A DNA stretch of 64,000 nucleotides from Prorocentrum cordatum (GCA_963575745.1 CAUYUJ010000199.1:1-64000); one strand, 5' to 3'. Shown: positions 9,061-23,557, counted from the stretch's first letter. A program made the numbers and translations. The notes: a model not told the origin generated them from the letters alone.

Positions 9061-12000
9061 CGGCAATCCTGTCGTTCGATACTTCCTTGTGCTTTACCCT
9101 TCGCTGGGGTTCCACTGGCGGTCTCGCATCGGCGCAGCAAGGCGCGGGCATGTGTTTTCGAGGCGGGATGTCTTTAATTGTCCTCGGAGGAAGTGTTTGC
9201 AAGACCTCATTGGGCGGGATACCTGGGAATGGGAATAACGGACCCCGCTATAGAACAAGAGTCCCCCATGATGTGGATGGTTATCATGATGGTCGCATGC
9301 TTCGTGTGGGAACATGGCGCATGAGGGTAAAACGATTGTTGTTGTTATTGACATCTCAGTTCTGAAGAATAATTATTGTTGTTCCCCCCGCCCTGTGCAC
9401 ATGGTATTTGTGTCGATTGAAGTGCCCTTCCCGGGGCTCGCACGACCCTTTACAGCAGGAAGATTTTGGAGGCTCAAACTCTGTCGTTGACCCCCGTATT
9501 ACAACAACAACAACAATCAGTTTAACACTGTTCGCCCTTATCTGCTCGAGTGTCCAATAACGCGTATTTCCGAAACCCTCGATACCCGCCCTCTTCGTCT
9601 TCGATCAAAAACACCTCTTGGGAGGTATACCTTTCATCCATGCAGGCCGGGCCCCGGCAAGCGGCGGGGCGGCCGCGCACCGTCGGCCTGGCCAGCGGCA
9701 GCGCTGATCGGCGGGGCGGCCGCGGACCGTCGACCCGACCCCAAGAGGGACGGACAGGGGACCGACCACGACGACGACGACGACGTCGACGACGACGGCG
9801 ACGACGACGACGACGGCGACGACGAGCGAGAGCGAGAGCGAGAGAGAACGACAACAGGGCCACGAAGGACACGAAGTAGGCCACGAATGGCGACAGCGGG
9901 GACACGAAGGGAACGCGTATGGGGCCACGAAGAGCGCGAACCAGCGGGGGCCACGAAGGGTAGATAATGCGGGGCCACAGAACGCAACGATGGGGCCAAT
10001 GAGGGTAGCAACTGGGCCACGTAGAACGTTGAGGGGACCACAAACGGCGACAGCGGGGCCGCGAAGGGCATGCACATGGGGCCACAACGGGTGCGACTCT
10101 TGGGTGCCTGGGTGTCGGGAGCGCGGCGCTTGAGCAAATTGCAGGAAATTCCCGCGCAAGGGCGTTATTCTTAATAAATTGCAGGCAAGTCTCCAGCGAG
10201 AGCGCGACTCCAGAGCGCCGGGAGAGCGATTCCTGAATAAATTGTAACGAAGTCCCAAGCGAGAGCGCGAATCCTGACTGAAATGCGAGAGAGTCTCGGG
10301 CGGGAGCGGGGGTCCTGGCTAAATTGTGAAGAAGTCTCAGGGGGGAGCCGTTGTTGTTGTGACCCGGGGGCCAGGCTTAGTTTGAACATGAAGATTTTCC
10401 TTGAGAAACAAACAGGGTGCGAGCGTCGAGGGGCGCATTTTGATTTTGAGAAACATCAGTATGCATTGGTGGGGGGGGATCAACAATTATTTTTTTCAGA
10501 AGTGAGAGCTTCACAACAACAACAACAACTTCCGCTTAGTATTTCCTCACAAGTTATTGAAGAATCGCGCTCTCGTTTGGGACCTCCTGGCAACTTCCAC
10601 CGATTCGCGGTTCCCGCTGGATACTCCTGACAATTGGTTGCAGAATCGCGTTCTCGGTTGGGACTTCCTCGCAATGTACCACCCAACCGTTTCGCTTGAT
10701 ATTTCTTCGGAGTGTATTCCGGTTCCGGTCCTTGACACTCAGGAATCGCGCCTTCCGCTACATATTGCCTGGCGGTTTAAGAAGCAGGACTCACGCTTCA
10801 ACGACCCCCCCGTTCGACCCGCCCGTCGGGGCCTGCCCGCCCAACGAGTCCGTTAATGACTGCAATCGCCGCTCGTTGCCCTTCGCCCGCCGTCGGTGCC
10901 CTTCGCTGCCCGTACTGGTTCCGCGGTCGCCTTCGCTCGCTGCCCTTCGTGGCCCCGTTGCTGTCCTCGGTGGCCCCGCATTATTTGCCCTTCGTGGCCC
11001 CCGCTCGCACGCCCCCGTCGTGGCCCCATACGCATGCCTTTCGTAGCCCTGCTGTCGCCCTTCGTGGTCCCTGTCGCTGCCCTTCGTGGCCCCTTTGCTG
11101 CCCTCAGTGGCCCCGCTGTCGCCCTTTGTGGCCCTGTACGCAAATGCCCGTCGTGGCCCCCGCTCGCTCGCGCCCGCGAACATGTCTCGCGCGCCTGAAT
11201 ATCGGACCCTGAAACGCAAGTCGTGCAGATGATGCCCGTTCGGGTGACCATGGCTGAGATGGGCTTTGCAGCGGAGCTACACGGAGCGAGGTCCGCGGAG
11301 TGGGAACTTCGGAAAGATGGCGAGGGGAATGGCGACGATTATGGGAAGGATAATGCGGACAGGAGGATGAGGCGGAGGAGAAGGAGGAGGGGGAGAAAGA
11401 GAAGGGGGGGCAGGAGGAAGGGGAAGAGGAGGAGGACGACAAAAGGGAAAAGGAAGGGCAGGAGGAAGAGGACGGAGGAGAGAGAGGAACAGGAGGATGA
11501 GGGGGAGGACAAGGTACGCTGCAGCCTCCCATGCCATGAAACATCGGATGACTTTCGGGCTGCCCCGCCACCGTGTGTCGGGTTGTGGGTCTGGGCCTTC
11601 ATGGGGAGCTCTTGCGGCTCTCTGCCCGACCTCTTCCCGAGGACCGTTTCATGGGGGCCCTTTCACCCCCCTGTCCTCGTGACAGCAGTTGTGAGGCTTC
11701 GCCGGGCGTGCTCTGGGCCCCTGCGGCGCTTCCTTGGGGCCTCTTGGGTGCCTGATGCATCGCAGGGGCGTCTGGAGAGCTCGTGGGTGCACTTGGTGGC
11801 GGTGAACTCGAATTGTCGGTCCTGGCTCCCCCTCCTGGGGCGCCTCTGGGGCCGTCTGGGGCCTTTCCTGCTGTTTTTTTGTTGGGTCGGTCTTGGGCGC
11901 CAGAGGCGCCGTTTTCAACGCCGCGGAGGCCGAAGAGTCGTGTGTAGTGTTTTCCAATCGGAATTGGACGAATTTTGATGTTCGGGGCCATCTTGGGAGG

Positions 12001-12114
12001 CTTCTGAGAGGCTTTGTCAAGCGTCCTGAAGCGTCCGGTTTGGGGTCCCGGGGGGGATGATGGGAGGGGGAATCGAACCTCTCACGCCTGGAGACCCACA
12101 AGGGGTCGGCGGAT

Positions 12115-12503
12115 TTCATGGACGCCCGACGCGGTGGAGCCTGGAACCCTCCGCAGCGGTTCCGCCACAGCGGTCGTGTTCATGATTTTCGGTGGTCCAG
12201 TGGTCATTCCTCCTCGTGCTCGCCCTCGCTCTCTTCGTCCTCGTCCTTGTGCTTCTCTTCCTCCTCGTTGTCCTCATGCTCCTCCTCGCTATCCTCACGT
12301 TCGCCACGTCGTCCTCGTCAGCGACTCCTCGTTGTCCTCGCTTGCCTTTCCTTCTTCGCCCAATACGCCCCACTAGACTACAGCGGCGCTTCCCATTCTT
12401 GTCCGATCAGGCTTCATGGACGCCCGACGCGGTGGAGCCTGGGACCCTCCGCGGCGGTTCCGCCACAGCGGTCGTGTGCATGATTCTCGGTGGTCCAGTG
12501 GTC
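12115..12503 (+). repeat. Pair of ~90-bp direct repeats flanking a CCT-rich spacer
   Basis: TTCATGGACGCCCGACGCGGTGGAGCCTGG...GGTGGTCCAGTGGTC at 12115-12205 and 12413-12503. Confidence 0.85.
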
Positions 12504-12697
12504 GTGCACATCACTTCCTGCGCCGCGCGGCACCTGCGATTCGCATGGGCCCGCAGACCTCTCCTCCCATCGGCGAGCCCGCCGGCTCCACAGCAGCAGC
12601 CGCGCTGGCAGGAGCTGGGGCCCGATGGCTGCCAGGAAGGCTCCCGGCTTGCCGAGATCTCACCACAGGCTCACAAGTTGGCAGCGACACGTTTAGG

Positions 12698-12832
12698 CCT
12701 CAGTGGGCCCTGGAAACGACAGGGCCTTTTTTTACCGGTTCCGTTCTGCCGTTTATTAACCGGCTCCGACGCCGTTTTTTTACCCAGAGGTCCCTCATGT
12801 TCGTTTTTCGGACATGAGTGCCATGTTCATTT
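12698..12832 (+). repeat. Left bipartite terminal inverted repeat
   Basis: Outer ~45 bp (12698-12743) pair with 22589-22636; inner TACCCAGAGGTCCCTCATGTTCGTTTTT...CCATGTTCATTT pairs with 22421-22473. Confidence 0.85.
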
Positions 12833-13067
12833 GTAATGAACATGGCATCATGATCGCCATGTTCGTTTTTGAACATGACGTAACGCGTTTGCACACAACG
12901 CGGTCTGAACGGCACGAGTGCCATTCGTTCTTGCCGCGGCTGTCCGCCGCGCACACGATCAGCTTGATCGACGGGCTTACGGGCCCGACGTTTACGGCAT
13001 GCATGCAAGCAGAAAAATCGGGGCTAGGATCCAGTCCAACGCCGATTCGAATCTAGGAGGAGGAGGA

Positions 13068-13099
<32 letters not shown>

Positions 13100-13746
13100 G
13101 AGGAGGAGGAGGAGGAGGAGGAGGAGGAGGAGGAGGAGGGATATCGAGGATCGGGGATCGATCGAGGGTCGGAGGAAGAGGGGAAGGAGGAGGAGGAGCC
13201 TCGAGGAGGAGGAGGAAAAGGAAGAGGAAAGGAGGGGAGAAGAGGGAGGAGGAGGACGGGGAGGAGGAGGAGGAGGAGGAGGAGGAGGAGAATGAAGAGG
13301 GGGAGAAAGGGAAGGAGGAGGAAGATTGGGAGAGGCGGCAAACGATCAGAATTGTTCAAACTTCTCTGACATGCGATTTCGGACCAAGGGCGAGTGGTCT
13401 TGGGGGAAAGGGAGGAAGGCAGCGGCAGCAGCAGCAGCAGCAAGAAGAGAAGGAGGAGGCGAAGGAGGAGGAGGAGGACAGGGGTGGACCTGGGACCCCG
13501 CTTTTACTATGTCCTTGAAGTCTCGAGCGGGGTTCGGCGGTGGCGTGCCGCAGGCTTGTCCATAGATCTTGGGAATCGTGCAATACCCCCTATAACCTGT
13601 GTCTCGATTCTTATGGCGTGTTACCTGAATCAGAGTGGAAGTAACCCAGATGAAACACTGCGGAGATCATTGTGGGCCAGATGTGTTCAGCCAGGGCCCT
13701 ATGGGGATCTTTTTTTCTTTTTGGAGGCTCACGCTCCTGGCGCCGC

Positions 13747-15915
13747 TCAAAACCACATCTCTGTGGGCAGTGCGTGTTCAGTCTGGGCGAGGTGAAACTT
13801 GGCGAACAATCTTCGCTCAAAGGTAAGTCTATGGCAACGCGCGGCTATGTGCACAATTGTTTTGTTTAAGCCTTCATCGGAATATGAATGATATGCCCTT
13901 GGGTTCCCTTTGAATGCAGAGTCAATTGAAGAATGTACGAATCCATGATGCTTGGGTTTCACTGGAACTCCCGCCTGCTGAGCAAAACGATTGTGCGCCA
14001 GTGAACAACGAACCAACAGCTCAGACGCTGCTATCGGTAGGAGCCTTGTGTGTGCAGCGACTGTACCCATCCAGGTCTCAATGGCCTCGCCAGCCTGGAT
14101 CAGAGCACCCGCGTCAGTTATTTCAAACAAGCGCTCGCGGAACTGCCTCAACATCTTCAACACGTATGGGAAAAAATGCTTCGTTTCAGCAGCTTTGAGG
14201 CTCAAGGACGGGTCATCGTACTGCCCCAACATACTCGGCACCAAGCGTCCAACACGCGTGATGCCTCCTCTCCTCTCGGGCGGCAGTGTCCTCGGGAGCG
14301 ATTGAAAATCAATTGTCACCTCTTTTTCTGCGCCCCTCCCCCAGGACCCCAGATGATATGTCCAAATGTCATGTGCTGCGTGCGCACCACATGCAATTTG
14401 GACCCCCTCCTCAAACACAACACTAGATAGTGGGTGGCTAATGTTTCAGGTGCTGAGCGGTCCTAGTGTATTCGGGATACCATCTGTGAAGGCCTGCGGT
14501 AAGGGACAACACTGTTTGCCTCATTTTTTCTCGTCGGGTTGTTGCACCAGAATTAAACACACCAATTTCGCTCATGTACCAAATCGAAGTCCCCAAATAG
14601 TCTTGCAGCACTCCAAGATGCACCGTGTGTAGGATGTCAATCCCTATACAGTCTAGCCCAATGCCAAGATACAATACGAACAATGGGTGCCTCCTGCTGG
14701 CCATGATAGGTTTTTGAGATCTCCAAAATAGAACTATGCACGGAAACTTGGTAATACTCTCAAATGCCATTGTGTGAGGGAGTTGGCAGGATGGTTCCAA
14801 ACGATCACCCTGACGCAACAGAGTGTCCCCGACCTTGATGTCACGCGATAACACCCTACCCTTCTGTTTTGGTTTGCTTTCTAGTGCGGACCTGATTTCA
14901 AAATGACTACCGCGATCTGGGATGGAAACCCATATCTCGCACGACGTGCAATATTTATCGTAATCATCTTGTGTTTTTTCTGCCACGTGTTCACGTCGAG
15001 CGAATTAAAGTCCTTCTTTTGAATATGGCATTTGAAACAACAATGGAAGTTCGCACTCCAAGATGTTAAGCCCCACCGCTGAACTATTTCAGCCCAGTCA
15101 CCAATAATATCAAGAACCACGACCCTAAAACCTAAAGGCTTTCCACTCTTGAGTGCGCGGCCCCCATCTGAGAACAACCAGTCGGCCCCGTCGTGCCTCG
15201 CAGAGGGCCAGCGCCCCTGAGCGAGAGCCTCTAAGCTCCACTTGACAAATTCAAAAAATGAGAACAGCGAGTCCCAACCCCCGCAGCCGCAGTTGCAGAA
15301 GTCCGACTTTCGGACTGAAAAACATAAATGTCTGAAGGCACTGTTGATAAACCGCACAGTGAAGGCCAGCACGCTATCCCGTGACTGATATTCAGACGCG
15401 TCTACATATAAAACCAACGGGATCGTCGCACATCTTTCTTCGTTCGCAAGCCCGACAATAAGGGGATGCTTCTCGAAACATTCGACCCACTCTCTTCCAG
15501 AAATCGCATCTCTCCAAGCTGTTCGAATTTCAGGGTGGGCCTCCAATTCTCTTGCCAAGGCTTCGTGGGGTGGCATAGTACAAGACTCAACCATTTCAAT
15601 ATCACCAGCATATTTTGAATACATCGGAACTTTGATGCGGTACAGTTTCTCGTCTTCCTTAGCGAACCCGAGCGCCCGGTCTAGTTTTCTCTGGAAGTGG
15701 CCCGAGGGGCTCTCGGGGGGTAATCCGTATTTCCTCGCTTCTCGCACCCCAGCTTCAGCAGCATAGTGACATAAGATACAAGCCCTTCGGGCGCTGATCT
15801 CGCCTGCCAAATACGGTTCAATGATCTCTTGAACAAAGAGCTCCCCAGGATTCGGGCCAGGTGGTCCGTCCCCAGCGTCCCAAGGGGGGACATCCCATTC
15901 AGCATGTCGCTTCAT
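13747..15915 (-). CDS. DDE transposase of the CMC (CACTA/EnSpm/Mirage/Chapaev)/Plavaka type, ~665 aa reconstructed with one intron and one homopolymer frameshift
   Basis: Joins ORFs 14881..15966 (from ATG 15915), 14438..14986 and 13747..14418. Motifs: PLVLYVD (first Asp), IIGDW (second Asp), CCFKC (C-x2-C), DILHTVHLG ([M/L]H), KPKHHGFVH (H-x3/4-H), NPRAYHSYSDE (Glu). The frame is restored by adding one A to the A6 run at 14974-14979. Confidence 0.75.
14291..14462 (-). other. Predicted 172-nt intron with a non-canonical GA donor (AG|GA...AG|G)
   Basis: Removing it fuses ...HRWYPEYTR to TLPPERRGGITRV in frame and removes the stop at 14438. AGGAC is repeated at both junctions. An alternative in-frame GT donor lies 18 nt upstream. 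Confidence 0.6.
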
Positions 15916-15925
15916 GAATGCAAGG

Positions 15926-15946
15926 TTTGGGCTAAAATGCTTCGGA
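15926..15946 (-). other. Spliced-leader-like 21-mer upstream of the transposase
   Basis: TCCGAAGCATTTTAGCCCAAA versus TCCGTAGCCATTTTGGCTCAAG (17/22 with one gap); ends 10 nt before ATG 15915. Confidence 0.6.
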
Positions 15947-16277
15947 ACCAATGGCGATAAATACACCGATGCATCCCCTCCACGCTTATACTCCCTCCTA
16001 CCTCCTCCGTCTTTGCCTCCTCCACATCCTCCTCCCTTCCTTTGCTGTGACTACCCAGCTTCGTCTGCGCTCAGTCCCTTGTGATCCCACGCTCTCTCCA
16101 ACGCCCCCCCCCCCGTCTCTCATTGTTCAGTTGCTACGTGGGCGGCGACGGTGTTCTTGGCATGGGGCGTTTTGTTAGGGGAGAAGGATGGCCGAGGGAG
16201 AGAAGGGAGGAGAGGTTTCCGATCGTTGATCATTGCGACATTCTGAATGGGATGTAGATTCAGTCCGAGTGCGAACC

Positions 16278-17009
16278 CTACGCCGAGCGATCCACGCCTG
16301 GCAGGACGCCTCGATTAAGATCTACAAGCGTTTGCACAAACTGCTCTGGGTAAGCGCTGGATGCAGTCGTGCGTTTTTTGTTGCCGTTGAAACGTCCCCT
16401 CTTGCATTTAGAAGTTAGGCGCTGCGAGGGTCTGGGCATGTTATGATACTTCGAACTTGCCAGGCGTTCAAACTGCGACGCCCATGCAGCATTCGTGAAA
16501 CCCACCTGCGGCTTGGGCGACGCGTGTCCGAAAACAAATATGTGCCACTTCACGCGCTGAGCCCCCGTGCGAGAAATGGCATCTTCGATTGCAGGATGGT
16601 GCCAAAATACTGAATTGGCAGGCTGTTCGACGAAGAACACGAGACCCAAATAGCTACACAGCATGATGTAATCGGCAACGAACTCTGCCACTCTATTGAA
16701 AATTATTGTCAATTTGTTGTCGTGCCCCAGAGGGTTCTTCAGCGTGCGCCCATGAGACCGTCTCGAAAGCCCAACGAAGTTCTTGCACGGAGGATCCAAA
16801 AGCACCAAACTGCCAGAGACACATCGCACGAGCATGGCCACAGCGCTGCGAACCCCTGGAGGCCGAGTAATATCATGAGATTTGTCGAGAGTTCCCGAGT
16901 CGAAAGCCCCGCAGTCCAGACCGCTGTTCTGCATGAAATCAGAGAAGGTTCCAACGCCAGCAAACCCATCTACCCCGTACAGGCGAGGCTGGTCGCGCGT
17001 GATCGCCAT
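16278..17009 (-). CDS. C5 cytosine DNA methyltransferase-like protein (~243 aa from ATG 17009)
   Basis: Motif I VDGFAGVG (FxGxG), AFD...HDIT, motif IV LDPPCKNF (catalytic PC), motif VI FFVEQPANS, SPKPQ..FTN and C-terminal SSAYPEQF, in canonical order in an uninterrupted ORF. Confidence 0.8.
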   Translation of the reverse strand: MAITRDQPRLYGVDGFAGVGTFSDFMQNSGLDCGAFDSGTLDKSHDITRPPGVRSAVAMLVRCVSGSLVLLDPPCKNFVGLSRRSHGRTLKNPLGHDNKLTIIFNRVAEFVADYIMLCSYLGLVFFVEQPANSVFWHHPAIEDAISRTGAQRVKWHIFVFGHASPKPQVGFTNAAWASQFERLASSKYHNMPRPSQRLTSKCKRGRFNGNKKRTTASSAYPEQFVQTLVDLNRGVLPGVDRSA

Positions 17010-17099
17010 CAGCTCAAACAGGAGGCAACCCCAGCCAACAGGAATGCATCCAGATAGCGGCATCCCAGTGAGCGTTTCGTTCCTCAGCGGCCCGAAAAT

Positions 17100-17120
17100 C
17101 TTGAGCCAGATGGCTACGGA
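17100..17120 (-). other. Spliced-leader-like 21-mer upstream of the methyltransferase
   Basis: TCCGTAGCCATCTGGCTCAAG, one deletion and one mismatch from DinoSL; 90 nt before ATG 17009. Confidence 0.85.
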
Positions 17121-17824
17121 GACCAAGGTGCCCTGGGACCATGGATTTGCAAGACATTCTCAATTGGGGGCGGCTCTCGATCTCATCCTCCGTCCCACTC
17201 GCAGTCTAATCCTCGAGGTCACAGCCCCTGAGGCGTTTTCGAAGGGCCTTCCCTCCCAAGCATTGCAAAAAAGAGAAGGGTGGGCATCAACTTCTCTCGG
17301 GTCAGCCGTTGCATACACGCGTGTTTCCAGCGTGCTAAGACGTTGGGAGAGAGCGAGACGCGAGAGTGGGAAAGGAAGCATGCACATGGACGACAATGGG
17401 GGGAGGGGGTGTGTGAGGATATGTTTCTTGTTTTGCAGGCTGCTTGCTTCCCCTCGCGCTGCTCCTGCAGCGCTGTAGCGTTCCAAACCAGCGAAAGTAC
17501 GTCGGGCCATCAGAAATTGCATCCGATTCAGAGCTGATTTGGACCTTGTCAAAAGTCATCGCAACCTCATCGAAAAAGTCATCGCTAACATGTAACACCT
17601 CATCGCATAACTCACCGGTCGTTTTTGAGGAATGTATCAGGGATTCTGCCTACCTCATCGCAAAGTCATCGCAAACCTCATCGGTGCGAACTCATCGCCA
17701 AACTCATCGGTCCGAAATCGCTCGAGGCCCTGGGAAAACCGGTCTGGATCCTAAAATTCTGGCAACCGCTGCAAACATTCGATATACCTGCGATGGCAGG
17801 CCCCCAGGCACACAGCTGTATGGC

Positions 17825-19118
17825 TCAAGCGGAAGTGGCCGAGTACTCCGAGTGCATCTTCGTGATCCTCTGGCACCTGGCGTGCACCTGATCGAGCAGC
17901 GGCTTCAGGATGGCGACGCAATTGCTGACCTGCTTCACGAACTCCGAGTCTCCAAGGCCCCTCTTGGTGTTGATAATGTTGTTGCTGATCGGAACTGTGT
18001 TCAGTATCGATGGGCACGCTGCCTTGGCTTTCCCCACGTCGTTTTTCAACTGAACTGCTATTGGTGAATCCTCGTGGAACCAGTCCTTCCAGATCGGATG
18101 CCTCTCGGTGGCCGCCTTCATAATCTCGTCGGCGCTCCCAATGCTGTTGCGCCAGCTGGCGAGGATATCCTTGAGGTCCCTCTCCGACTTGCTGACCATC
18201 TTCTTGTCTGGCGTGGCTGGCTCGAGATCATCGACGGGGCCCGCGTCAGCCGTAGGCTGCTTCCTCTTCTTATTTGGTCTCACAGGCTTCCTGGGGGCAT
18301 CGTCGTCATCGTCATCCTTGCCCAGTTCCTGCTTGATGCCCCACGCCCTCTCCAGAATCTCGGTGAAGCCCTCCTCCTGGTGAGCGAACCTCTGCCCGAG
18401 CTTGACGCAGTGCTTGGCTATGTTGATCCCCACTGTCTCGTCGTGCTCCTTGGCGATGATCTGCTTCAGCGAGCGGTAGTACGTCTTGCTCCAGTCGATT
18501 TGTCTGGTGATTTCTGTCTGCGTGATCTTCTCCCTGAGCACCTTCGCCTTAGTTTCTGCCCACTTTTTGCGGCGCTCCTTCTTCTCGTCTGGATCCATTT
18601 TCTGGTATTTCTCGAGCTCCTTGGCGTTGATCTTCTTTCTGAGCCACCTGTCGAAAGCTGAATACTCGGGAGTCCTCGCCACAACTCCATGCACGGATGC
18701 GTGCTCGTAGGTCCGAACCCGCTGATCCGTCTCTTGCTTGACCTCCCCAGCCTCTGCGGCTTCCTCCTGCAGCTCCTCTTCGATCTTCTCCAGGGTGCTC
18801 GGCTCCATGCCCGTCATGCTAGATGGGAAGGCGGCGTGCTCTTGGCCTTGGTCGCTGCCGTACTGACGATCGAGCTCGCTGACCTCCATGTGCTGTTGGC
18901 TGACGGCGCCTGGCTGCTGTCCAAGGTCACTCGGCTGCGGGATGGGCTGCGGGTTCACGGGCTCCGAGACAGAACCCGCGAGTGCGATGGCGGCGGCCCC
19001 GAAGTCGGCGTCGCCCGGTGGCGGCATCGGCAGTTGCGTTGAAGTCGCGGCGGAGGGTGCGGGCTCTGCTGGCGCTGCTGGCGCCGCCTGACCGCTGGCG
19101 CCGCCTGGCGTTGGCGCT

Positions 19119-19151
<33 letters not shown>

Positions 19152-19270
19152 GCGTTGGAGTCGTCTTCGATCTCGATGATGGGCGCCTGGGGATACACGA
19201 CCTCCACGAGGCCCGATGCTCCAAGCCGACGGCCCACGCCGCTGAAAGGCACGAAGCGACGATCGCCCAT
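17825..19270 (-). CDS. Transposon accessory protein (481 aa): SHP-box-like and SIM-like motifs, polyQ/Pro-rich linker, charged helical C-terminal region
   Basis: Long ORF, mostly non-repetitive, with GC-rich third positions; N-terminus FVPFSGVGRRLG...IIEIEDD; basic patch KPVRPNKKRK; SL-like sequence upstream. Confidence 0.7.
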
Positions 19271-19328
19271 GGCGAGGATTGCTCGACAACAATCGAGTGT
19301 CGGTTGTTTGGCTTGGCCCTAGGCTGAG

Positions 19329-19350
19329 TTTGAGCCAACATGGTTACGGA
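19329..19350 (-). other. Spliced-leader-like 22-mer upstream of ORF 17825..19270
   Basis: TCCGTAACCATGTTGGCTCAAA, 19/22 identical to DinoSL; 58 nt before the ATG. Confidence 0.8.
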
Positions 19351-20497
19351 AAGAGGGCGTTGACCGAAATTGGAAACGCAGTTTCAAGCTAGCAGGCGAC
19401 CGTTCGGGCAGGACCAGGACCATGCCGCCGATGAAAGCAACGCGGCGAAATTTCGGAAGGGAAGGGATCAGCAGCACAAAGGAGGAGGAGGAGGAGGAGG
19501 AGAAGGAGGAGGGGTACTCTCAAGAACAGTCCCAAAGTCTGTGCAATCCCACCCTTGTCAGATTTCGGCATACTGAATCTGGAATTCTTCGGGCGAAGCA
19601 CGTGAGATGAGATGGGGTCAACGCGTGATCCAAACGGGGCGGGTATTGAAACTTGATTGCTACCTCATTGCCACCTCGCTGCCCTGTTCAGTAAGCGACC
19701 CCCTATAATCGTTTCGCCTACCTTTGCATTTTTCGATTGGGTGAGAGGGCCTGGACGTTTTCACTCGCGTTGCTTGATTTCTGCGAGAGCCCCGAACACA
19801 AGCACTTCAAATGATCCCGATTTTGCTTACAAGGTTGCCTCTTTTGCTCATGCTGCTGCTGCCGCTGCTGCTCTGGCTCTTCCTCATCCTCCTCTGTCTC
19901 ATCCCTCTCCTCCCACCTTCCCTCCTCGCTGTCCTCATCCGCTTCCTCGTGTTCCTCCTTCCTTTCCTGATCCTCCTCGCTCCTAGCATGGTCCTCTTCT
20001 TTCCATCTGAACATGGTCACCGCCGTCCTTGTCGCGAGTTTCGTCGCCTGCCGCCCTCCCCAGCGCGCTCTCAAGACTGCAGTCGGAGGTGCAGGAAGGA
20101 CGGCGATCGAGAGGGGCCAGGAGGAGACGTGGGTAGCAGGATGGCCAATCTGAGAATTCAGGAGGTCCCTGGAAGAGCATCCGATACGTTCAAAAGGCCC
20201 TTGGGTCCGGCGTTTCAGGCATACTCCCCCACTCTCTTCCTCCATCTCTGTCCTCCCTCCTCCCCTCCCTTGCTACCCCTCTTCGATGCTGGTGGGTGCG
20301 ATGTGACTGGATGCGATGTCACTGGGCACATGCTTAACTTGTGACCAACTGCTGCTGAAAGGCAGTTCGAAGTGAATGCACGCAGTCGCAAGGCTGAGGA
20401 CAAACTGACATGCTCGAGAAAATATGGATGGGCATGCGTGGCGAAACTGGGACGCCCTGTACACTCTGCAGTGTAAAGCTCAACTGAAGTAGGAATA

Positions 20498-21868
20498 TCA
20501 CTCAACCGATTTGTGAAGTTTCTCGACCTCCTTTGCGCCGAACGCTTTCATGGCATCAAGGTCCTTGATTTTGTTACTGCACAACTTTTTAGCGATGCCA
20601 GTTGCAACTTTCACACGCGTCTCTTCCATGCCCCCTCGAAGAACTGGCACTGCAAACCTCTGTTTGCCGTTCACGGCGATGTAGATCAGGAAACCTGTGT
20701 GGTTCACGCTATTGGCGCGGTCCTTCTTCCGCTTCACGACGATGTTCTCTTTGCCCCACGCGCCCTCGAAGTACGTCACCGATCCGCGAGGGGCCCTCGG
20801 CCCGCGACCAGGGCTGGCTTGGACGTAAGCTAAGTCCTCGTGGAAGAAGTCTTGGATGATATAGGATCGGCCGCCGCTGAAATTGCCAACCACCCTGTCG
20901 TTGGCGGTGGGCTGCACGTCCGTCGTGAACTCCTTCGGTTCGCCTGGGAAGCGAAACCAAGCGCCCTGCCCTCTCTCGAATCCCGTCTCGGGCTGCTCTT
21001 CTCCTCTGGCACCTTCGGGATCCTCGAGCGGCGGGGGGCCTGCTGGCACTGCCGACGGCGCTGCAGCTGGTAGGTCGTCAGCTGGTTCTTCTTCTGAGCT
21101 TTGGACCTCCTGGCGGTACTTGTCGAAGACGAAGGACTTCGGCATGCTCAGGTCGTAGAACGTCTCGGTGCCTGACGGCCTCTTGGAAGCTGCAGCATGA
21201 GCTACAGCTGGACGCTTCTTGACCTCGGCGTCCTCTGCACCATCGGGCTGTCCGACTCCCTCTTCCTCAGGGTCCTCTTCCTCAGGGTCCTCTTCATGCT
21301 CTTCCTCCTCCTCACCTTCGTCTTCGCAGTCGTCCTCGTCGTTGGATGGGCCGCCCAACTCTTCCGCTGCAGCTGGCTTCTTGGACGTACATCCGCTGGG
21401 CCGTTTCATGGGTGGAGCCGTAGCCGCGGTAGCGCTAGCTGGCCTCTTGCGAACGGCGTCGGCCTGGCTCTCAGGTTGGACGAGGTCGCTGATCTTCGCC
21501 GCCCACGACGGAACAGAAACCTGGCCGCATGCCCTGTTGTAGTGGCAGATCATGGTGCGCAATCGTTTGGCCAGCTGGCATGAAGCGGCCTTGTAGTCTT
21601 GTTGCAGGTCCCATTGTTTTGCTTTGTACACGCCAATGATTGCTCCCTTGGCCGTGCCCTGCGTGAGCCTATCTAACCCACGAGCTTGCAGGAACGTGAC
21701 TGTAGCTACGATCAGATCTTTTTGCTTCTCGATCAGCGTCACCTCGAGCGGTTCCTGCTTCATCTGATCACCATATTGAACGAAACCTGTTGTTGTTGCG
21801 AAGGGGAGCAGGACGGACGTAAGCGCTGACGTAACAGTTGCATTCTCACCATCATCTGAATCTGACAT
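20498..21868 (-). CDS. Transposon accessory protein (456 aa) of unknown function; KRP[AS] repeats and an acidic tract
   Basis: Uninterrupted ORF with RKRPAS, MKRPSG, KKPAA, KKRPAV and SKRPSG around an E/D-rich tract; basic C-terminal domain. Confidence 0.7.
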   Translation of the reverse strand: MSDSDDGENATVTSALTSVLLPFATTTGFVQYGDQMKQEPLEVTLIEKQKDLIVATVTFLQARGLDRLTQGTAKGAIIGVYKAKQWDLQQDYKAASCQLAKRLRTMICHYNRACGQVSVPSWAAKISDLVQPESQADAVRKRPASATAATAPPMKRPSGCTSKKPAAAEELGGPSNDEDDCEDEGEEEEEHEEDPEEEDPEEEGVGQPDGAEDAEVKKRPAVAHAAASKRPSGTETFYDLSMPKSFVFDKYRQEVQSSEEEPADDLPAAAPSAVPAGPPPLEDPEGARGEEQPETGFERGQGAWFRFPGEPKEFTTDVQPTANDRVVGNFSGGRSYIIQDFFHEDLAYVQASPGRGPRAPRGSVTYFEGAWGKENIVVKRKKDRANSVNHTGFLIYIAVNGKQRFAVPVLRGGMEETRVKVATGIAKKLCSNKIKDLDAMKAFGAKEVEKLHKSVE

Positions 21869-21893
21869 TGGTAGAAGAATTCGAGCACGCCCC

Positions 21894-21914
21894 TATAAGC
21901 CAAAAAGCTATGCA
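21894..21914 (-). other. Degenerate spliced-leader-like sequence upstream of ORF 20498..21868
   Basis: TGCATAGCTTTTTGGCTTATA retains TAGC and TTTTGGCT; about 25 nt before the ATG. Confidence 0.45.
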
Positions 21915-22420
21915 CAGATGACGCTACAATCGTTGAAGGCGTGTTGCTTCAGATGCTCACCCGTCCCTACTCTTCCTCCTCCTCTCCAAACACAGCCTCA
22001 AGCATTCACCTGGGACCGCTAGATCAATGACTTTGGGGCCGAGGACCCCCACAACGATAACTGAGAGGATGTCTCTGGTATGACATTGGAACCGCACAAG
22101 ACTAGTTGAGAGGATGTCTCTAGCATAACGCGACGACGCATGATATTGATATATCCATTTTGGGACCCCTACAACAGTAATTGAGAGGAGTTCTCTAGCG
22201 GGATGCGCCTGAATGCGAATCGTGGATCATGTTCGTAAATTCAATGGTGTTTCGACCGTTGGTGTGTGATCTGTGTACAACGTGACGTGCGCATGCGCAT
22301 GTTTTAACAGCGATGTATGTGCGTATGTGTTTTGTTGTTTTGTTTTTGGTTATCGTCCCTTTTTGTGTGGAATCAGTTGCGCTCACCTAGCAATGTAATT
22401 CCAGGTTTTAAATCTCCCCA

Positions 22421-22636
22421 AAATGGACATGGTGATCCAGGTTCAAAAAACGACCATGAGGGACCTCTGGGTACCCGTTCCGTCGCCGTTTTTTGACCGG
22501 TTCCGGTTCCGGTTCCAATCCTGGAGCCGTTTCTTTGCCGTTTCTGGTCGCCTTTTTTTGTCGTTTCCATTTTCAAAGGGCATTTTTTCAGAAATGGTGG
22601 AAAAACGGCTCTGCCGTTTTCCGGGGCCCACAGAGG
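22421..22636 (-). repeat. Right bipartite terminal inverted repeat
   Basis: Reverse complement matches 12698-12743 and 12781-12832. Confidence 0.85.
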
Positions 22637-22968
22637 TTCAGGCCATTCTTCCGAGGAAGCAAGTCCACCCGCCCGCGAGCCCGCCCGCCCGCCCTCCCTC
22701 CCTCCCGCCCGCCCTCCCTCCCCCTCCCTCCCCCCCCCCCCCCCTCCCTCCCTCCTCCCTCCCCCCTCCCTCCCTTCTCCCTCCTCCCTCCCCCCTCCCC
22801 CCCTCCCCTCCCCCCTCCCTCCCGCTCTCCACGCCGCATTGTAGCAGTGGCGCGCCGAGGCGGGAGAGTGGATGGGCGGGTTTTCCCAGGAGGCTCTGAA
22901 GGTCTCCGGACCTCTGAGATGGCTTGCGAGCCTCCTCCGAAGCTGCAGGCGGTTTCAGCCACGTGCAG

Positions 22969-23110
22969 AGGGGGTCGGGGGAGGGGGGAGGGCTTCTTAG
23001 AAGCACCCCTGCTTTTTCGAAGGCGCGGGCCTTATCTGTAGATGTAAGGCCAGCGCCTTCTAAGAAGCAGGGGTGCTTCTAAGAAGCCCTCCCCCCTCCC
23101 CCCACCCCCT
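22969..23110. mobile_element. Near-perfect palindromic (hairpin) MITE-like element
   Basis: Arms of about 66 bp (22969-23034 and 23045-23110) with about 4 mismatches and a 10-nt loop; a diverged copy lies at about 34378-34505. Confidence 0.75.
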
Positions 23111-23385
23111 TGTGCGCGCCGCCAACGGTTTCTCAGAAGGGCGGAGGGCCTTGAAGAAGCCCCGCCAACTTCCGAGGCGGCCTGCCCCCTCTCACTCCCC
23201 CCCCCGCCGCGCCGCCGATCGCACTTTTGCGTCGCGGCACGGCAGAGGCGGTCCGCACGTGCGCTCGGGCAGAGCCGGGAGACGGCGTATATGCCGGGAG
23301 GCAGGAGGGGAAGGCGCAGCCGATCACACGGATGCGGCAACTCTCTAAGGGTGCCTTCGCAACCTCGTCTCCCAGCCCATCCTTA

Positions 23386-23540
23386 ATGGGCCAATTTTCA
23401 CCACCACTACCATGGGTAGGAGGGGGGAGAAGGGAGGATGGGGAGGTCCTCCTCCTCCTCCTCCTCCTCCTCCTCCTCTTCTTCCTCCTCCTCCTCCTCC
23501 CTATCCTGCCTATGGTAGTGGTGGTGGTAAATCGGCCCAT
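23386..23540. mobile_element. Small MITE-like element with ATGGGC...CACCACCACTACCAT inverted ends
   Basis: ATGGGCCAATTTTCACCACCACTACCAT pairs with ATGGTAGTGGTGGTGGTAAATCGGCCCAT; related ends at about 26442, about 26560 and 26708-26737. Confidence 0.65.
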
Positions 23541-23557
23541 CAGTCCTGACCCTTCGG

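What the first reader, a model, noticed from the sequence alone, without database searches (positions are those of the whole stretch)
12698..22636. 10-kb DNA transposon carrying its own cytosine methyltransferase and two accessory genes
Seen: bipartite TIRs, an imperfect target duplication and four co-oriented genes (CMC/EnSpm-like transposase, C5-MTase with FAGxG/PPC/EQP motifs, two unknown proteins). Established: dinoflagellate retrotransposons are known to have captured cytosine methyltransferase domains. Inference: here a stand-alone DNMT gene sits inside a cut-and-paste class II element, an arrangement I do not recognise as described. It could methylate new copies so they match the methylated host genome, or regulate its own CG-containing ends.
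Basis: partly seen in the sequence, partly recalled or inferred. Interest (0 to 1): 0.92.

Follow-up and report, generated by a model that had tools for sequence, protein, structure and literature searches.

The report
Dinoflagellate DNA transposon carrying minimal cytosine-methyltransferase gene
A 10-kb cut-and-paste transposon copy in a dinoflagellate genome contains, beside its (now interrupted) transposase gene, a very short cytosine-methyltransferase-like gene from a large family that standard domain searches miss, but only this one locus could be examined.

Summary
The anatomy is real. Two-part inverted ends (12698-12734/22599-22636 and 12781-12832/22421-22473) beat all 500 shuffles, and a GCCGTTT motif is concentrated in them. 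Four co-oriented minus-strand ORFs lie between. The transposase has no Pfam hit, but 18 homologues share a D..D..C(2)C..HxxH..E pattern, and the nearest named structures for a 40%-identical homologue are Plavaka and RAG1 (the CMCT clade). Its frame is interrupted twice here. The methyltransferase ORF also has no Pfam hit, yet 982 cluster representatives match it. An AlphaFold model (pLDDT 95) matches C5 DNA methyltransferases first (M.HhaI Z 11.2). It keeps FxGxG, PPC and EQP but has no target-recognition domain. New here: remnants of the dinoflagellate spliced leader lie just upstream of the methyltransferase gene, ORF3 and, more decayed, the transposase. So these genes once passed through processed mRNA. 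In one related DNA run the ends are about 10-20 times deeper than the interior, with possible MITE-like joints. Not shown: other full copies, a clean target duplication, linkage of the two genes elsewhere (0 of 11 short loci), or enzyme activity. A virus-borne mariner element with a C5 methylase is already in print. Verdict: partly supported, a new variant of a known kind.

The parts
12692..12697 (.). Candidate left target-site duplication TTTAGG
   Evidence: It matches 5 of 6 with TTCAGG at 22637-22642. This is weak evidence.
12698..12734 (+). Outer terminal inverted repeat, left arm (CCTCAGTGGGCCC...)
   Evidence: Score 40 against a shuffle maximum of 20, with 0 of 500 shuffles reaching it.
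12698..12833 (.). Left terminal region with subterminal GCCGTTT motifs (2 copies)
   Evidence: In run X1 the depth is 273 at 12756, against about 12-20 in the interior.
12781..12832 (+). Inner inverted repeat, left arm
   Evidence: 83% identity over 53 nt; score 59 against a shuffle maximum of 25.
13747..15966 (-). DDE-type transposase gene (CMCT/Plavaka-like), about 700 codons. It is interrupted by a frameshift near the T6 run at 14974-14979 and by an extra, intron-like stretch of about 130-165 nt at 14293-14458.
   Evidence: Homologues. tblastn layout. Conserved D, D, C(2)C, HxxH and E. Atlas look-up.
15927..15946 (-). Probable decayed remnant of the dinoflagellate spliced leader, about 12 nt upstream of the transposase's first ATG
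   Evidence: Score 12, with 17 of 22 positions matching and one gap. The search was targeted to 390 nt. Whole-window shuffles reach 11-13, so this is probable and not certain.
16278..17063 (-). C5-cytosine-methyltransferase-like gene without a target-recognition domain (261 codons from the first ATG; a second ATG is at 17009)
17100..17120 (-). Spliced-leader remnant TCCGTAGCCATCTGGCTCAAG, upstream of the methyltransferase gene
   Evidence: Score 17 against a maximum of 13 in 10 shuffles. The leader sequence was confirmed in the abstract of PMC2606063.
17825..19270 (-). ORF3, 481 aa, unknown function (Gln/Ala/Pro-rich N-terminus, charged K/E-rich middle)
   Evidence: No Pfam hit and no PDB hit. 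The copy in X1 carries an in-frame 36-nt insertion.
19330..19350 (-). Spliced-leader remnant TCCGTAACCATGTTGGCTCAA, 60 nt upstream of the ORF3 ATG
   Evidence: Score 17; 19 of 22 positions match.
20498..21868 (-). ORF4, 456 aa, unknown function (acidic low-complexity middle)
   Evidence: No real Pfam hit and no real PDB hit.
22421..22473 (-). Inner inverted repeat, right arm
22421..22636 (.). Right terminal region with 5 GCCGTTT motifs
   Evidence: In X1, 10 contigs with summed depth 152 cover 22590-22595.
22599..22636 (-). Outer terminal inverted repeat, right arm
22637..22642 (.). Candidate right target-site duplication TTCAGG

Best explanation
This is one copy of a cut-and-paste DNA transposon in a dinoflagellate nuclear genome. 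Its ends are two-part inverted repeats studded with GCCGTTT motifs. Its transposase is a DDE enzyme of the EnSpm/Plavaka/Transib-RAG1 (CMCT) kind, and it would bind those ends and excise and reinsert the element (inferred). In this copy the transposase frame is interrupted twice, so the copy is probably no longer autonomous. Short derivatives that share the ends appear to be more numerous than the full element. Between the ends lie three more co-oriented genes. One encodes a 243-261-aa protein with the catalytic core of C5 cytosine DNA methyltransferases: the SAM-binding FxGxG, the Pro-Cys nucleophile and the conserved Glu. It lacks the target-recognition domain, and it belongs to a large family that PF00145 does not detect. 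If active (inferred, not shown), it would transfer a methyl group from SAM to cytosine C5, either with little sequence specificity of its own or guided by a partner. The methyltransferase gene, ORF3 and probably the transposase gene each carry a spliced-leader remnant just upstream. Ancestors of these gene copies were therefore transcribed, trans-spliced, reverse-transcribed and put back into DNA. That route (cDNA insertion or cDNA-mediated conversion) is how the cargo most likely entered or was renewed in the element. Whether the methyltransferase is a constant, selected part of this transposon family or a passenger of this lineage is open.
For: Ends: the inverted repeats stand well above shuffles. 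The 17-mer is unique to the two arms. 7 of the 18 GCCGTTT sites in the window lie in about 350 bp of termini.

Transposase: 7 homologues and 12 in the profile search, one of them found before. These are 560-710 aa proteins. D, D, C(2)C, LHxxHLG and KAAE are conserved in the aligned homologues and in the window's pieces. For P0002 (40% identical to the window's transposase), the Atlas's nearest named cluster by structure is Plavaka (96% of its members; TM 0.56, 417 residues aligned). By features the nearest named clusters are Plavaka at 0.89 and RAG1 RNase H at 0.88. The CMCT definition was taken from PMC12730594 (passages).

Methyltransferase: 982 cluster representatives at E<=1e-3. Invariant P72, C74, E127, Q128, P129, K165 and near-invariant F15, G17. 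AlphaFold2 with 81 sequences gave pLDDT 95.1 and pTM 0.91. The Foldseek PDB hits shown at the top are all DNMT1, DNMT3, DIM2 or MET1, with E from 1.6e-6. The independent VIA search put C5 methyltransferases in its first 12 rows (M.HhaI Z 11.2, 200 residues aligned), with generic Rossmann folds at Z<=9.3. BFVD hits are viral cytosine methyltransferases, including short ones of 210-260 aa. phrog_757 'DNA methyltransferase' matches 17 of 81 members, best E 3e-8. hhalign against Dcm plus 6 phage C5 methyltransferases gave probability 88.6% and E 2.7e-6 over motifs I-IV.

Spliced-leader remnants: the only two matches with score >=13 in the 64 kb both lie on the coding strand 5' of the methyltransferase gene and ORF3 (score 17 against <=13 in 10 shuffles). 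A weaker third lies 5' of the transposase ATG.

Abundance in run X1: depth is 273 at 12756 and 152 (10 contigs) at 22590, against about 12-20 from single contigs across the interior. Four contigs join 12732-12781 directly to 22472-22477.

No inverted or direct repeats of its own bracket the methyltransferase gene.
Against: Only one locus was seen. No genome is held. The second copy, in X1, is about 1% different and may be the same locus in another strain.

The target duplication is only 5 of 6 and is 6 bp long. The outermost matching bases are CCTC, with CAGTG/CACAG three bases inside. Neither fits the usual 5'-CA..TG-3' termini and 2-5 bp duplications of CMCT elements.

No Pfam transposase or DNA_methylase hit was found at any threshold used: 0 of 6 window ORFs, 0 real hits among 17 transposase homologues, and 0 real hits among 81 methyltransferase-family members.

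The flanks outside the ends are themselves repetitive in X1 (depth 305 at 12321), so the high depth of the ends is not clean proof of mobile derivatives. The joints have only 21-27 letters on their shorter side. The two ends also share a directly oriented similar stretch (12733-12768 and 22472-22505) that could produce such joints.

0 of 11 metagenome loci (1.1-7.8 kb) that encode relatives of the methyltransferase also encode a transposase relative.

Among the 25 listed coding differences between the window and X1, 17 change the amino acid and 8 do not. In the methyltransferase the split is 6 to 1. That is no sign of purifying selection (only 40 of the 259 differences were listed).

The window's copy has D where the family consensus and X1 have G before PPC. 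The protein has no target-recognition domain and no QxRxR motif.

Co-orientation of neighbouring genes is the rule in dinoflagellate genomes (PMC5890265, section 6) and is no evidence by itself.
Confidence: 0.55

Rival explanations
1. The methyltransferase-like gene (and ORF3) is an incidental retrogene that landed in, or was converted into, one old and decaying transposon copy. It is a passenger of this lineage only. It is not a trait of the transposon family and has no role in the element's life cycle.
For: Spliced-leader remnants mark both genes as having come from processed mRNA. About 23% of genes in two Symbiodinium genomes are such retrogenes (PMC5585692, abstract only). The transposase is interrupted. 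The differences from X1 look neutral. Relatives of the methyltransferase occur without a transposase in 11 of 11 short metagenome loci.
Against: The transposase gene itself probably carries a leader remnant too. The remnants may therefore reflect cDNA recycling of the element's own genes and not foreign capture. All inserted genes share the transposase's orientation. All family-invariant catalytic residues are intact in the 261-codon ORF.
Confidence: 0.3
2. There is no composite transposon. Two solitary copies of a short repeat lie by chance in inverted orientation around an ordinary one-directional dinoflagellate gene array that happens to include a transposase-derived retrogene.
For: The terminal sequences are multi-copy in X1 while the interior is covered by single contigs. 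The target duplication is imperfect. Three of the four genes look like retrogenes. The flanks are repeat-rich.
Against: Each end is only half of an element: outer arm then inner arm on the left, and the mirror order on the right. Neither is a complete short element with two arms of its own. No other copy of either end lies in the remaining 54 kb. A transposase of a clade known for CA..TG-type ends and subterminal repeats sits between them.
Confidence: 0.12
3. The protein has the C5-methyltransferase core but is not a DNA cytosine methyltransferase. It might act on RNA or another substrate, or serve as a non-catalytic subunit.
For: It has no target-recognition domain and no QxRxR motif, and it is shorter than any solved active DNA C5 methyltransferase among the hits. 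Dnmt2-type tRNA methyltransferases are among the fold matches (6fdf Z 9.6, 3qv2 Z 9.5). Sequence-profile similarity to true C5 methyltransferases covers motifs I-IV only.
Against: The catalytic Cys and Glu are invariant across 81 members. The top fold hits and the PHROG name are DNA methyltransferases. Short viral proteins annotated as cytosine DNA methyltransferases have the same compact build, but those annotations are themselves untested.
Confidence: 0.25

Closest known systems
Mariner-1_OLpv, a Tc/mariner DNA transposon in a giant algal virus (Bao & Jurka 2013, PMC3627910; passages read)
   Same: A cut-and-paste DNA transposon that encodes a separate C5 cytosine DNA methylase gene beside its transposase.
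   Different: It belongs to another transposase superfamily (mariner). It sits in a virus genome. Its methylase is a canonical 344-aa Cyt_C5_DNA_methylase paired with an EcoRII-like endonuclease, that is, a restriction-modification-like module. The element here sits in a cellular genome, has a CMCT-like transposase and no endonuclease, and its methyltransferase lacks the recognition domain and is not detected by PF00145.
SymbioLINE-Dnmt and SymbioDIRS-Dnmt3 retrotransposons of Symbiodinium (de Mendoza et al. 2018, PMC5890265; section 6 read)
   Same: Dinoflagellate mobile elements that encode C5 methyltransferase domains with conserved catalytic residues.
   Different: Those are retrotransposons whose DNMT was found with PF00145 and lies in ORF1 or within Pol. 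The element here is a TIR DNA transposon with a stand-alone gene of a family that PF00145 misses (0 of 81).
TET/JBP-carrying DNA transposons of fungi (Plavaka, EnSpm, KDZ and others; Kojima 2025, PMC12730594; passages read)
   Same: DNA transposons, including CMCT-clade ones, that carry a separate gene for a DNA-base-modifying enzyme acting on cytosine methylation.
   Different: The cargo there is a dioxygenase that removes or alters 5mC, and complete elements with clear target duplications exist in many copies. The cargo here is a putative writer of 5mC, and only one locus was seen.
Short phage and giant-virus C5-methyltransferase-like proteins (phrog_757; BFVD entries of 199-260 aa such as those of Tetraselmis virus 1 and Lactococcus phage P087)
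   Same: A compact C5-methyltransferase core without a large recognition domain. phrog_757 matches 17 of 81 family members. Structure matches reach TM 0.51-0.69.
   Different: Identity is only 12-15%. Their activities are, as far as I know, untested (recalled). They are viral and not transposon-borne.
Dinoflagellate retrogenes tagged by spliced-leader remnants (PMC5585692 and PMC12014239, abstracts only)
   Same: A DNA-encoded remnant of the 22-nt leader lies directly 5' of an intronless ORF.
   Different: Here the tagged genes lie inside the inverted ends of a DNA transposon, and they probably include the transposase gene itself.

Membership tests
C5 cytosine DNA methyltransferase (DNMT, PF00145) | Motif I, FxGxG SAM-binding loop after strand 1 | tested here: met
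   The window has FAGVG. F15 and G17 are at least 90% conserved in 81 sequences. hhalign aligns it to FAGiGG of Dcm and the phage methyltransferases.
C5 cytosine DNA methyltransferase (DNMT, PF00145) | Motif IV, Pro-Cys catalytic nucleophile | tested here: met
   The window has DPPC. C74 is at least 90% conserved in the 81-sequence alignment and, with P72, invariant among the 10 closest sequences. It aligns to GFPCQ.
C5 cytosine DNA methyltransferase (DNMT, PF00145) | Motif VI, ENV glutamate | tested here: inconclusive
   E127 is invariant but sits in EQP, not ENV. Its equivalence rests on its position in the fold match. The local hhalign alignment stops before it.
C5 cytosine DNA methyltransferase (DNMT, PF00145) | Motif VIII, QxRxR | tested here: not met
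   No such motif is present. Only K165-P166 is conserved at about the corresponding place. The equivalence is inferred.
C5 cytosine DNA methyltransferase (DNMT, PF00145) | Target-recognition domain between motifs VIII and IX | tested here: not met
   The whole protein is 243-261 aa. Only about 45 residues with one helix and a small hairpin (residues 172-215) lie there. M.HhaI is aligned over 10-326 with only 200 residues matched.
C5 cytosine DNA methyltransferase (DNMT, PF00145) | Overall fold of the catalytic domain | tested here: met
   Foldseek top hits are DNMT1 and DNMT3 at probability 1.0. VIA rows 1-12 are C5 methyltransferases at Z 9.4-11.2, above generic Rossmann folds.
C5 cytosine DNA methyltransferase (DNMT, PF00145) | Match to the Pfam model PF00145 | tested here: not met
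   0 of 81 family members at E<=0.1. The window ORF has none either.
C5 cytosine DNA methyltransferase (DNMT, PF00145) | SAM-dependent methylation of cytosine C5 in DNA | not testable with these tools
   This needs an enzyme assay or methylome data.
CMCT clade of DNA transposons (EnSpm/CACTA, Mirage, Chapaev, Transib, Plavaka, ESTA, Lanisha), as defined in PMC12730594 | DDE catalytic triad | tested here: inconclusive
   Conserved D (YxDA), D (GDW) and E (KAAE) sit at spacings of about 98 and about 250 residues in the homologues and the window. No structure of the window's own protein was made. The assignment is by pattern.
CMCT clade of DNA transposons (EnSpm/CACTA, Mirage, Chapaev, Transib, Plavaka, ESTA, Lanisha), as defined in PMC12730594 | [quoted passage not shown] | tested here: inconclusive
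   C(2)C is present (CFKC in the window, CFCC in P0002). The histidine pair is HxxH, two residues apart and not 3-4.
CMCT clade of DNA transposons (EnSpm/CACTA, Mirage, Chapaev, Transib, Plavaka, ESTA, Lanisha), as defined in PMC12730594 | Termini 5'-CA..TG-3' and 2-5 bp target duplications | tested here: inconclusive
   CAGTG/CACAG lies 3 nt inside the outermost matching bases. With those inner ends the 3-bp flanks are CCT and AGG, not a duplication. With the outer ends the flanks match 5 of 6 over 6 bp. Other copies are needed to fix the ends.
CMCT clade of DNA transposons (EnSpm/CACTA, Mirage, Chapaev, Transib, Plavaka, ESTA, Lanisha), as defined in PMC12730594 | Sequence match to Transposase_21 or Plavaka Pfam models | tested here: not met
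   No hit for the 3 window pieces or for 17 homologues at E<=1.
CMCT clade of DNA transposons (EnSpm/CACTA, Mirage, Chapaev, Transib, Plavaka, ESTA, Lanisha), as defined in PMC12730594 | Structural likeness to a clade member | tested here: inconclusive
   The Atlas model of homologue P0002 against a Plavaka cluster gave TM 0.56 over 417 residues. Feature scores were 0.89 (Plavaka) and 0.88 (RAG1).
Dinoflagellate retrogene | DNA-encoded spliced-leader remnant 5' of the ORF on the coding strand | tested here: met
   Met for the methyltransferase gene (17120-17100) and ORF3 (19350-19330), both with score 17 against <=13 in shuffles. Probable for the transposase. None for ORF4.
Dinoflagellate retrogene | Poly(A) remnant at the 3' end | tested here: not met
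   No A-run follows the methyltransferase stop or the ORF3 stop.

The most novel reading that the evidence does not exclude
A family of CMCT-type DNA transposons in dinoflagellates carries its own minimal C5 DNA methyltransferase without a recognition domain. That enzyme belongs to a very large protein family, invisible to PF00145, that earlier DNMT censuses missed. It writes 5mC on the element or on newly replicated or inserted DNA, so cut-and-paste elements as well as retrotransposons would contribute to the heavy cytosine methylation of these genomes. The element's genes are renewed through spliced-leader-tagged cDNA.
Probability: 0.22. Interest if true: 0.8.

Novelty: new variant of a known kind. 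Interest (0 to 1): 0.6.

Why it matters
Mobile elements that carry enzymes for DNA modification show how genomic parasites manipulate the marks meant to silence them. In print I found C5 methyltransferases in eukaryotic retrotransposons (PMC5890265; the 2026 preprint 10.64898/2026.05.21.726589, passages). I also found TET/JBP enzymes in fungal DNA transposons (PMC12730594) and one virus-borne mariner element with a canonical C5 methylase (PMC3627910).

My three full-text searches turned up no DNA transposon of a cellular eukaryote with a C5-methyltransferase gene. That is not proof that none is described.

Separately from the transposon question, the methyltransferase-like family is large (982 representatives at 50% clustering) and escapes PF00145, the model used to count DNMTs in Symbiodinium. 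If it is active, it changes the inventory of possible 5mC writers in dinoflagellates. The spliced-leader remnants inside a TIR element also bear on how dinoflagellate mobile elements acquire or renew genes.

Tried and rejected
- Own-genome search: no genome is held. Copy number, other target duplications and empty sites could therefore not be examined.
- The search for homologous proteins with the methyltransferase ORF found nothing by word search. The exhaustive HMMER search then found the family.
No fold of the transposase, ORF3 or ORF4 could then be made.
- phmmer against PDB gave nothing for the methyltransferase or ORF3, and noise for ORF4. The profile of the transposase family against PDB gave only chance hits.
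- NCBIfam: 0 of 81.
- Pfam on 16 longer family members with N-terminal extensions: none.
- Viral contig scan: 26 pattern matches, none confirmed.
I did not pursue it.
- No RNA holder was listed for the element, so there are no transcript or splice data.
- Runs X7 and X8 (other organisms of the same study as X1) showed only low-complexity matches. Contigs show presence and not absence, so this is not used as evidence.
- No spliced-leader remnant was found in the 11 metagenome loci.
- No leader-derived peptides were found at the N-termini of the 168 homologues.
- CpG observed/expected is 0.88 in the element against 0.90 in the window, and the listed differences from X1 show no CpG bias. This is uninformative about methylation.
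- No paralogous empty site lies in the window.
- Removing the 17 nt that X1 lacks at 15014 puts the downstream frame in register but creates a stop and removes the second Cys of C(2)C. It is therefore not a simple repair.
- Pfam on 15 other ORFs of the window: none.

Full report
**Observation.**
- The outer arms (12698-12734 and the reverse complement of 22599-22636) match at about 31 of 37 columns. Their local score is 40, against a maximum of 20 in 500 shuffles (83% over 36 nt).
- The inner arms (12781-12832 and 22473-22421) are 83% alike over 53 nt. Their score is 59, against a shuffle maximum of 25.
- A 17-mer from the inner arm occurs exactly twice in the 64 kb, once per arm.
- Between and within the arms the heptamer GCCGTTT is concentrated. 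7 of its 18 sites in the window fall in about 350 bp of termini. This resembles the subterminal repeats of EnSpm/CACTA-type elements (that resemblance is recalled).
- The flanks read TTTAGG and TTCAGG, a 5-of-6 match. It is suggestive and nothing more.
- Four ORFs lie on the minus strand. They have the least biased amino-acid make-up of all long ORFs in the window.

**Host.** The window's assembly is not held. A near-perfect copy of the 22-nt dinoflagellate spliced leader (sequence confirmed in the abstract of PMC2606063) lies at 17120-17100 on the minus strand, and another at 19350-19330. These are the only two matches with score 13 or more in the window. Each scores 17, against at most 13 in 10 shuffles. 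The leader is specific to dinoflagellates (established knowledge; abstracts), so the host is a dinoflagellate.

**Transposase.**
- The three pieces 15966-15013, 14986-14459 and 14292-13945 align in order to one 618-aa homologue, P0002.
- 7 homologues were found with the N-terminal piece. The profile search found 12, one of them already known. These are mostly 560-710 aa.
- None has a Pfam hit, and the PDB profile search gave only chance hits.
- The alignment shows conserved D (YxDA), D (GDW), C(2)C, LHxxHLG and KAAE in the homologues and in the window's pieces.
[quoted passage not shown] Here the histidines are two residues apart.
- For P0002, the Atlas's nearest named cluster by structure is Plavaka (TM 0.56, 417 residues). 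By features the nearest named clusters are Plavaka (0.89) and RAG1 RNase H (0.88).
- I read the protein as a CMCT-like DDE transposase of no named superfamily.
- In the window its frame is broken twice. At about the T6 run 14974-14979, 26 nt stand where homologues have 8 residues. Between 14459 and 14292, about 130-165 nt with stops stand where all homologues are continuous. This second stretch may be an intron or an insertion.

**Methyltransferase-like gene.**
- The ORF shows FAGVG, DPPC and EQP.
- Pfam, NCBIfam and phmmer against PDB found nothing, and the word-indexed search found nothing.
- The exhaustive HMMER search found 982 cluster representatives at E<=1e-3 and 190 at E<=1e-10.
- In 81 aligned members E127 is invariant, and F15, G17, C74, Q128, P129 and K165 are nearly so. 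The consensus reads ExFxG...GPPCSSW...EQPxSS...SxKP...SxAYPxxF.
- AlphaFold2 with this alignment gave pLDDT 95.1.
- Foldseek against PDB returned DNMT1, DNMT3A/B, DIM2 and MET1 in the top rows shown (E from 1.6e-6, probability 1.0, TM by query about 0.4).
- An independent all-against-representatives search put C5 methyltransferases in rows 1-12, ahead of generic Rossmann enzymes at Z<=9.3. These were M.HhaI (Z 11.2, 200 residues, rmsd 4.2), DNMT3A/B, M.MpeI, DIM2, MET1, Dnmt2 and DNMT5.
- The match to M.HhaI runs from residue 10 to 326 of the enzyme while aligning only 200 residues. The model lacks the target-recognition domain.
- BFVD gave viral cytosine methyltransferases, including compact ones of 199-260 aa.
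- phrog_757 'DNA methyltransferase' matches 17 of 81 members (best E 3e-8).
- Profile-profile comparison with E. coli Dcm plus six phage C5 methyltransferases gave probability 88.6% and E 2.7e-6 over motifs I-IV only.
- The Atlas's nearest clusters for member P0020 include one automatically named 'DNA (cytosine-5-)-methyltransferase family protein'. The nearest cluster with a Pfam family has PF00145 in 35% of its members, at score 0.85, which is a lead.
- So the C5-methyltransferase core is present with its nucleophile and glutamate. QxRxR and the recognition domain are missing. Activity on DNA is an inference.

**Is the gene part of the element?** No inverted or direct repeats of its own bracket it. 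It lies 312 bp upstream of the transposase ORF and in the same orientation.

**Spliced-leader remnants, the new fact.** One lies 37 nt before the first in-frame ATG of the methyltransferase gene. One lies 60 nt before the ORF3 ATG. A more decayed one (17 of 22 with one gap, score 12 in a targeted 390-nt search) lies about 12 nt before the first ATG of the transposase. ORF4 has none.

Such remnants mark gene copies that went through a trans-spliced mRNA and reverse transcription (abstracts of PMC5585692 and PMC12014239). They show that ancestors of these genes were expressed. They also give a route by which cargo can enter a DNA transposon. Because the transposase probably carries one too, the remnants do not by themselves show that the methyltransferase is foreign. 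cDNA-mediated conversion of the element's own genes would give the same picture. No poly(A) remnants were seen.

**Copies.** Only public-run contigs could be used.
- One DNA run (X1) holds 66% of the element's sampled words.
- Laid on 11000-24000, it covers the interior with single contigs that differ by about 1%, at depth about 12-20.
- Inside the terminal regions the depth is 273 (at 12756) and 152 in 10 contigs (at 22590).
- Four contigs join 12732-12781 directly to 22472-22477. A short derivative made of the two ends would look like this.
- Caveats: the shorter side of these joints is only 21-27 letters. The two ends share a directly oriented similar stretch. The flanks outside the element are themselves repetitive (depth 305 at 12321).
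- X1 has in-frame indels in the transposase (3 nt) and ORF3 (36 nt), and a 17-nt deletion at 15014 that leaves a stop.
- Of the 25 listed coding differences, 17 change the residue and 8 do not (40 of 259 differences were listed). The two copies therefore diverge about neutrally.
- A marine metagenome run (X2) holds pieces of the transposase gene and ORF3 at 99-100% identity.

**Linkage elsewhere.** 11 metagenome loci (1.1-7.8 kb) encode relatives of the methyltransferase at 23-54% identity. None encodes a relative of the transposase, ORF3 or ORF4, by tblastn or by HMM. The loci are short and the relatives distant, but this speaks against an obligate association.

**Mechanism.**
- Shown: inverted ends with subterminal repeats, a conserved DDE-type pattern, a C5-methyltransferase core with catalytic residues, and leader remnants.
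- Inferred: the transposase binds the ends and cuts and pastes the element and its short derivatives. This copy is no longer autonomous. The small methyltransferase transfers methyl from SAM to cytosine C5, with little specificity or with a partner. The cargo came in through cDNA.

**Known relatives.** C5 methyltransferases are known in dinoflagellate LINE and DIRS retrotransposons, where they were found with PF00145 (PMC5890265, section 6). TET/JBP genes are known in fungal DNA transposons, including Plavaka and EnSpm (PMC12730594). A canonical C5 methylase with an endonuclease is known in a giant-virus mariner element (PMC3627910). Three full-text searches found no cellular-genome DNA transposon with a C5-methyltransferase gene.

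**Verdict.** I rate it a new variant of a known kind, with moderate-to-high interest. The limits are the single locus, the interrupted transposase, the weak target duplication and the untested enzyme.

Noticed in passing
window 23133-25991: About 2.8 kb at 78% G+C made of short tandem units. It is open in several frames on both strands, giving PPWRVQ/GATPLA-type repeat 'proteins'. It looks like a satellite and not a gene.
   Followed up: no
window 22969-23034 / 23045-23110, and 34375-34506: A 66-nt-arm palindrome (94% complementary, 10-nt loop) lies 330 bp right of the element. A 74-77% similar copy lies at 34375-34506. It may be a small foldback or MITE-like repeat family.
   Followed up: partly
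window 12115-12205 and 12413-12503: A 91-nt direct repeat, 96% identical and 298 bp apart, lies in the left flank. The flank is highly repeated in run X1 (depth about 300).
   Followed up: no
window 15890-15910 / 16235-16255: A 21-nt inverted repeat (95% complementary, arms 324 nt apart) brackets the 5' end of the transposase gene and the spacer to the methyltransferase gene. It has no explanation.
   Followed up: no
window 17547-17712: A cluster of CTCATCGC(N)AA-type short direct repeats on the + strand, in the spacer between ORF3 and the methyltransferase gene.
   Followed up: no
window 11000-11433: Extremely high contig depth in runs X1 (about 6800) and X2 (about 600), with many 'goes back' joints. 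This is a very abundant short tandem repeat.
   Followed up: no
window 12813-12852: A 40-nt near-palindrome (88%) lies just inside the left inner repeat.
   Followed up: no
L007 1090-2460 and L008 1375-2745: Two metagenome loci encode 457-codon open frames in which the methyltransferase-like core is embedded in a longer protein. The extensions of 16 longer family members have no Pfam domain.
   Followed up: partly
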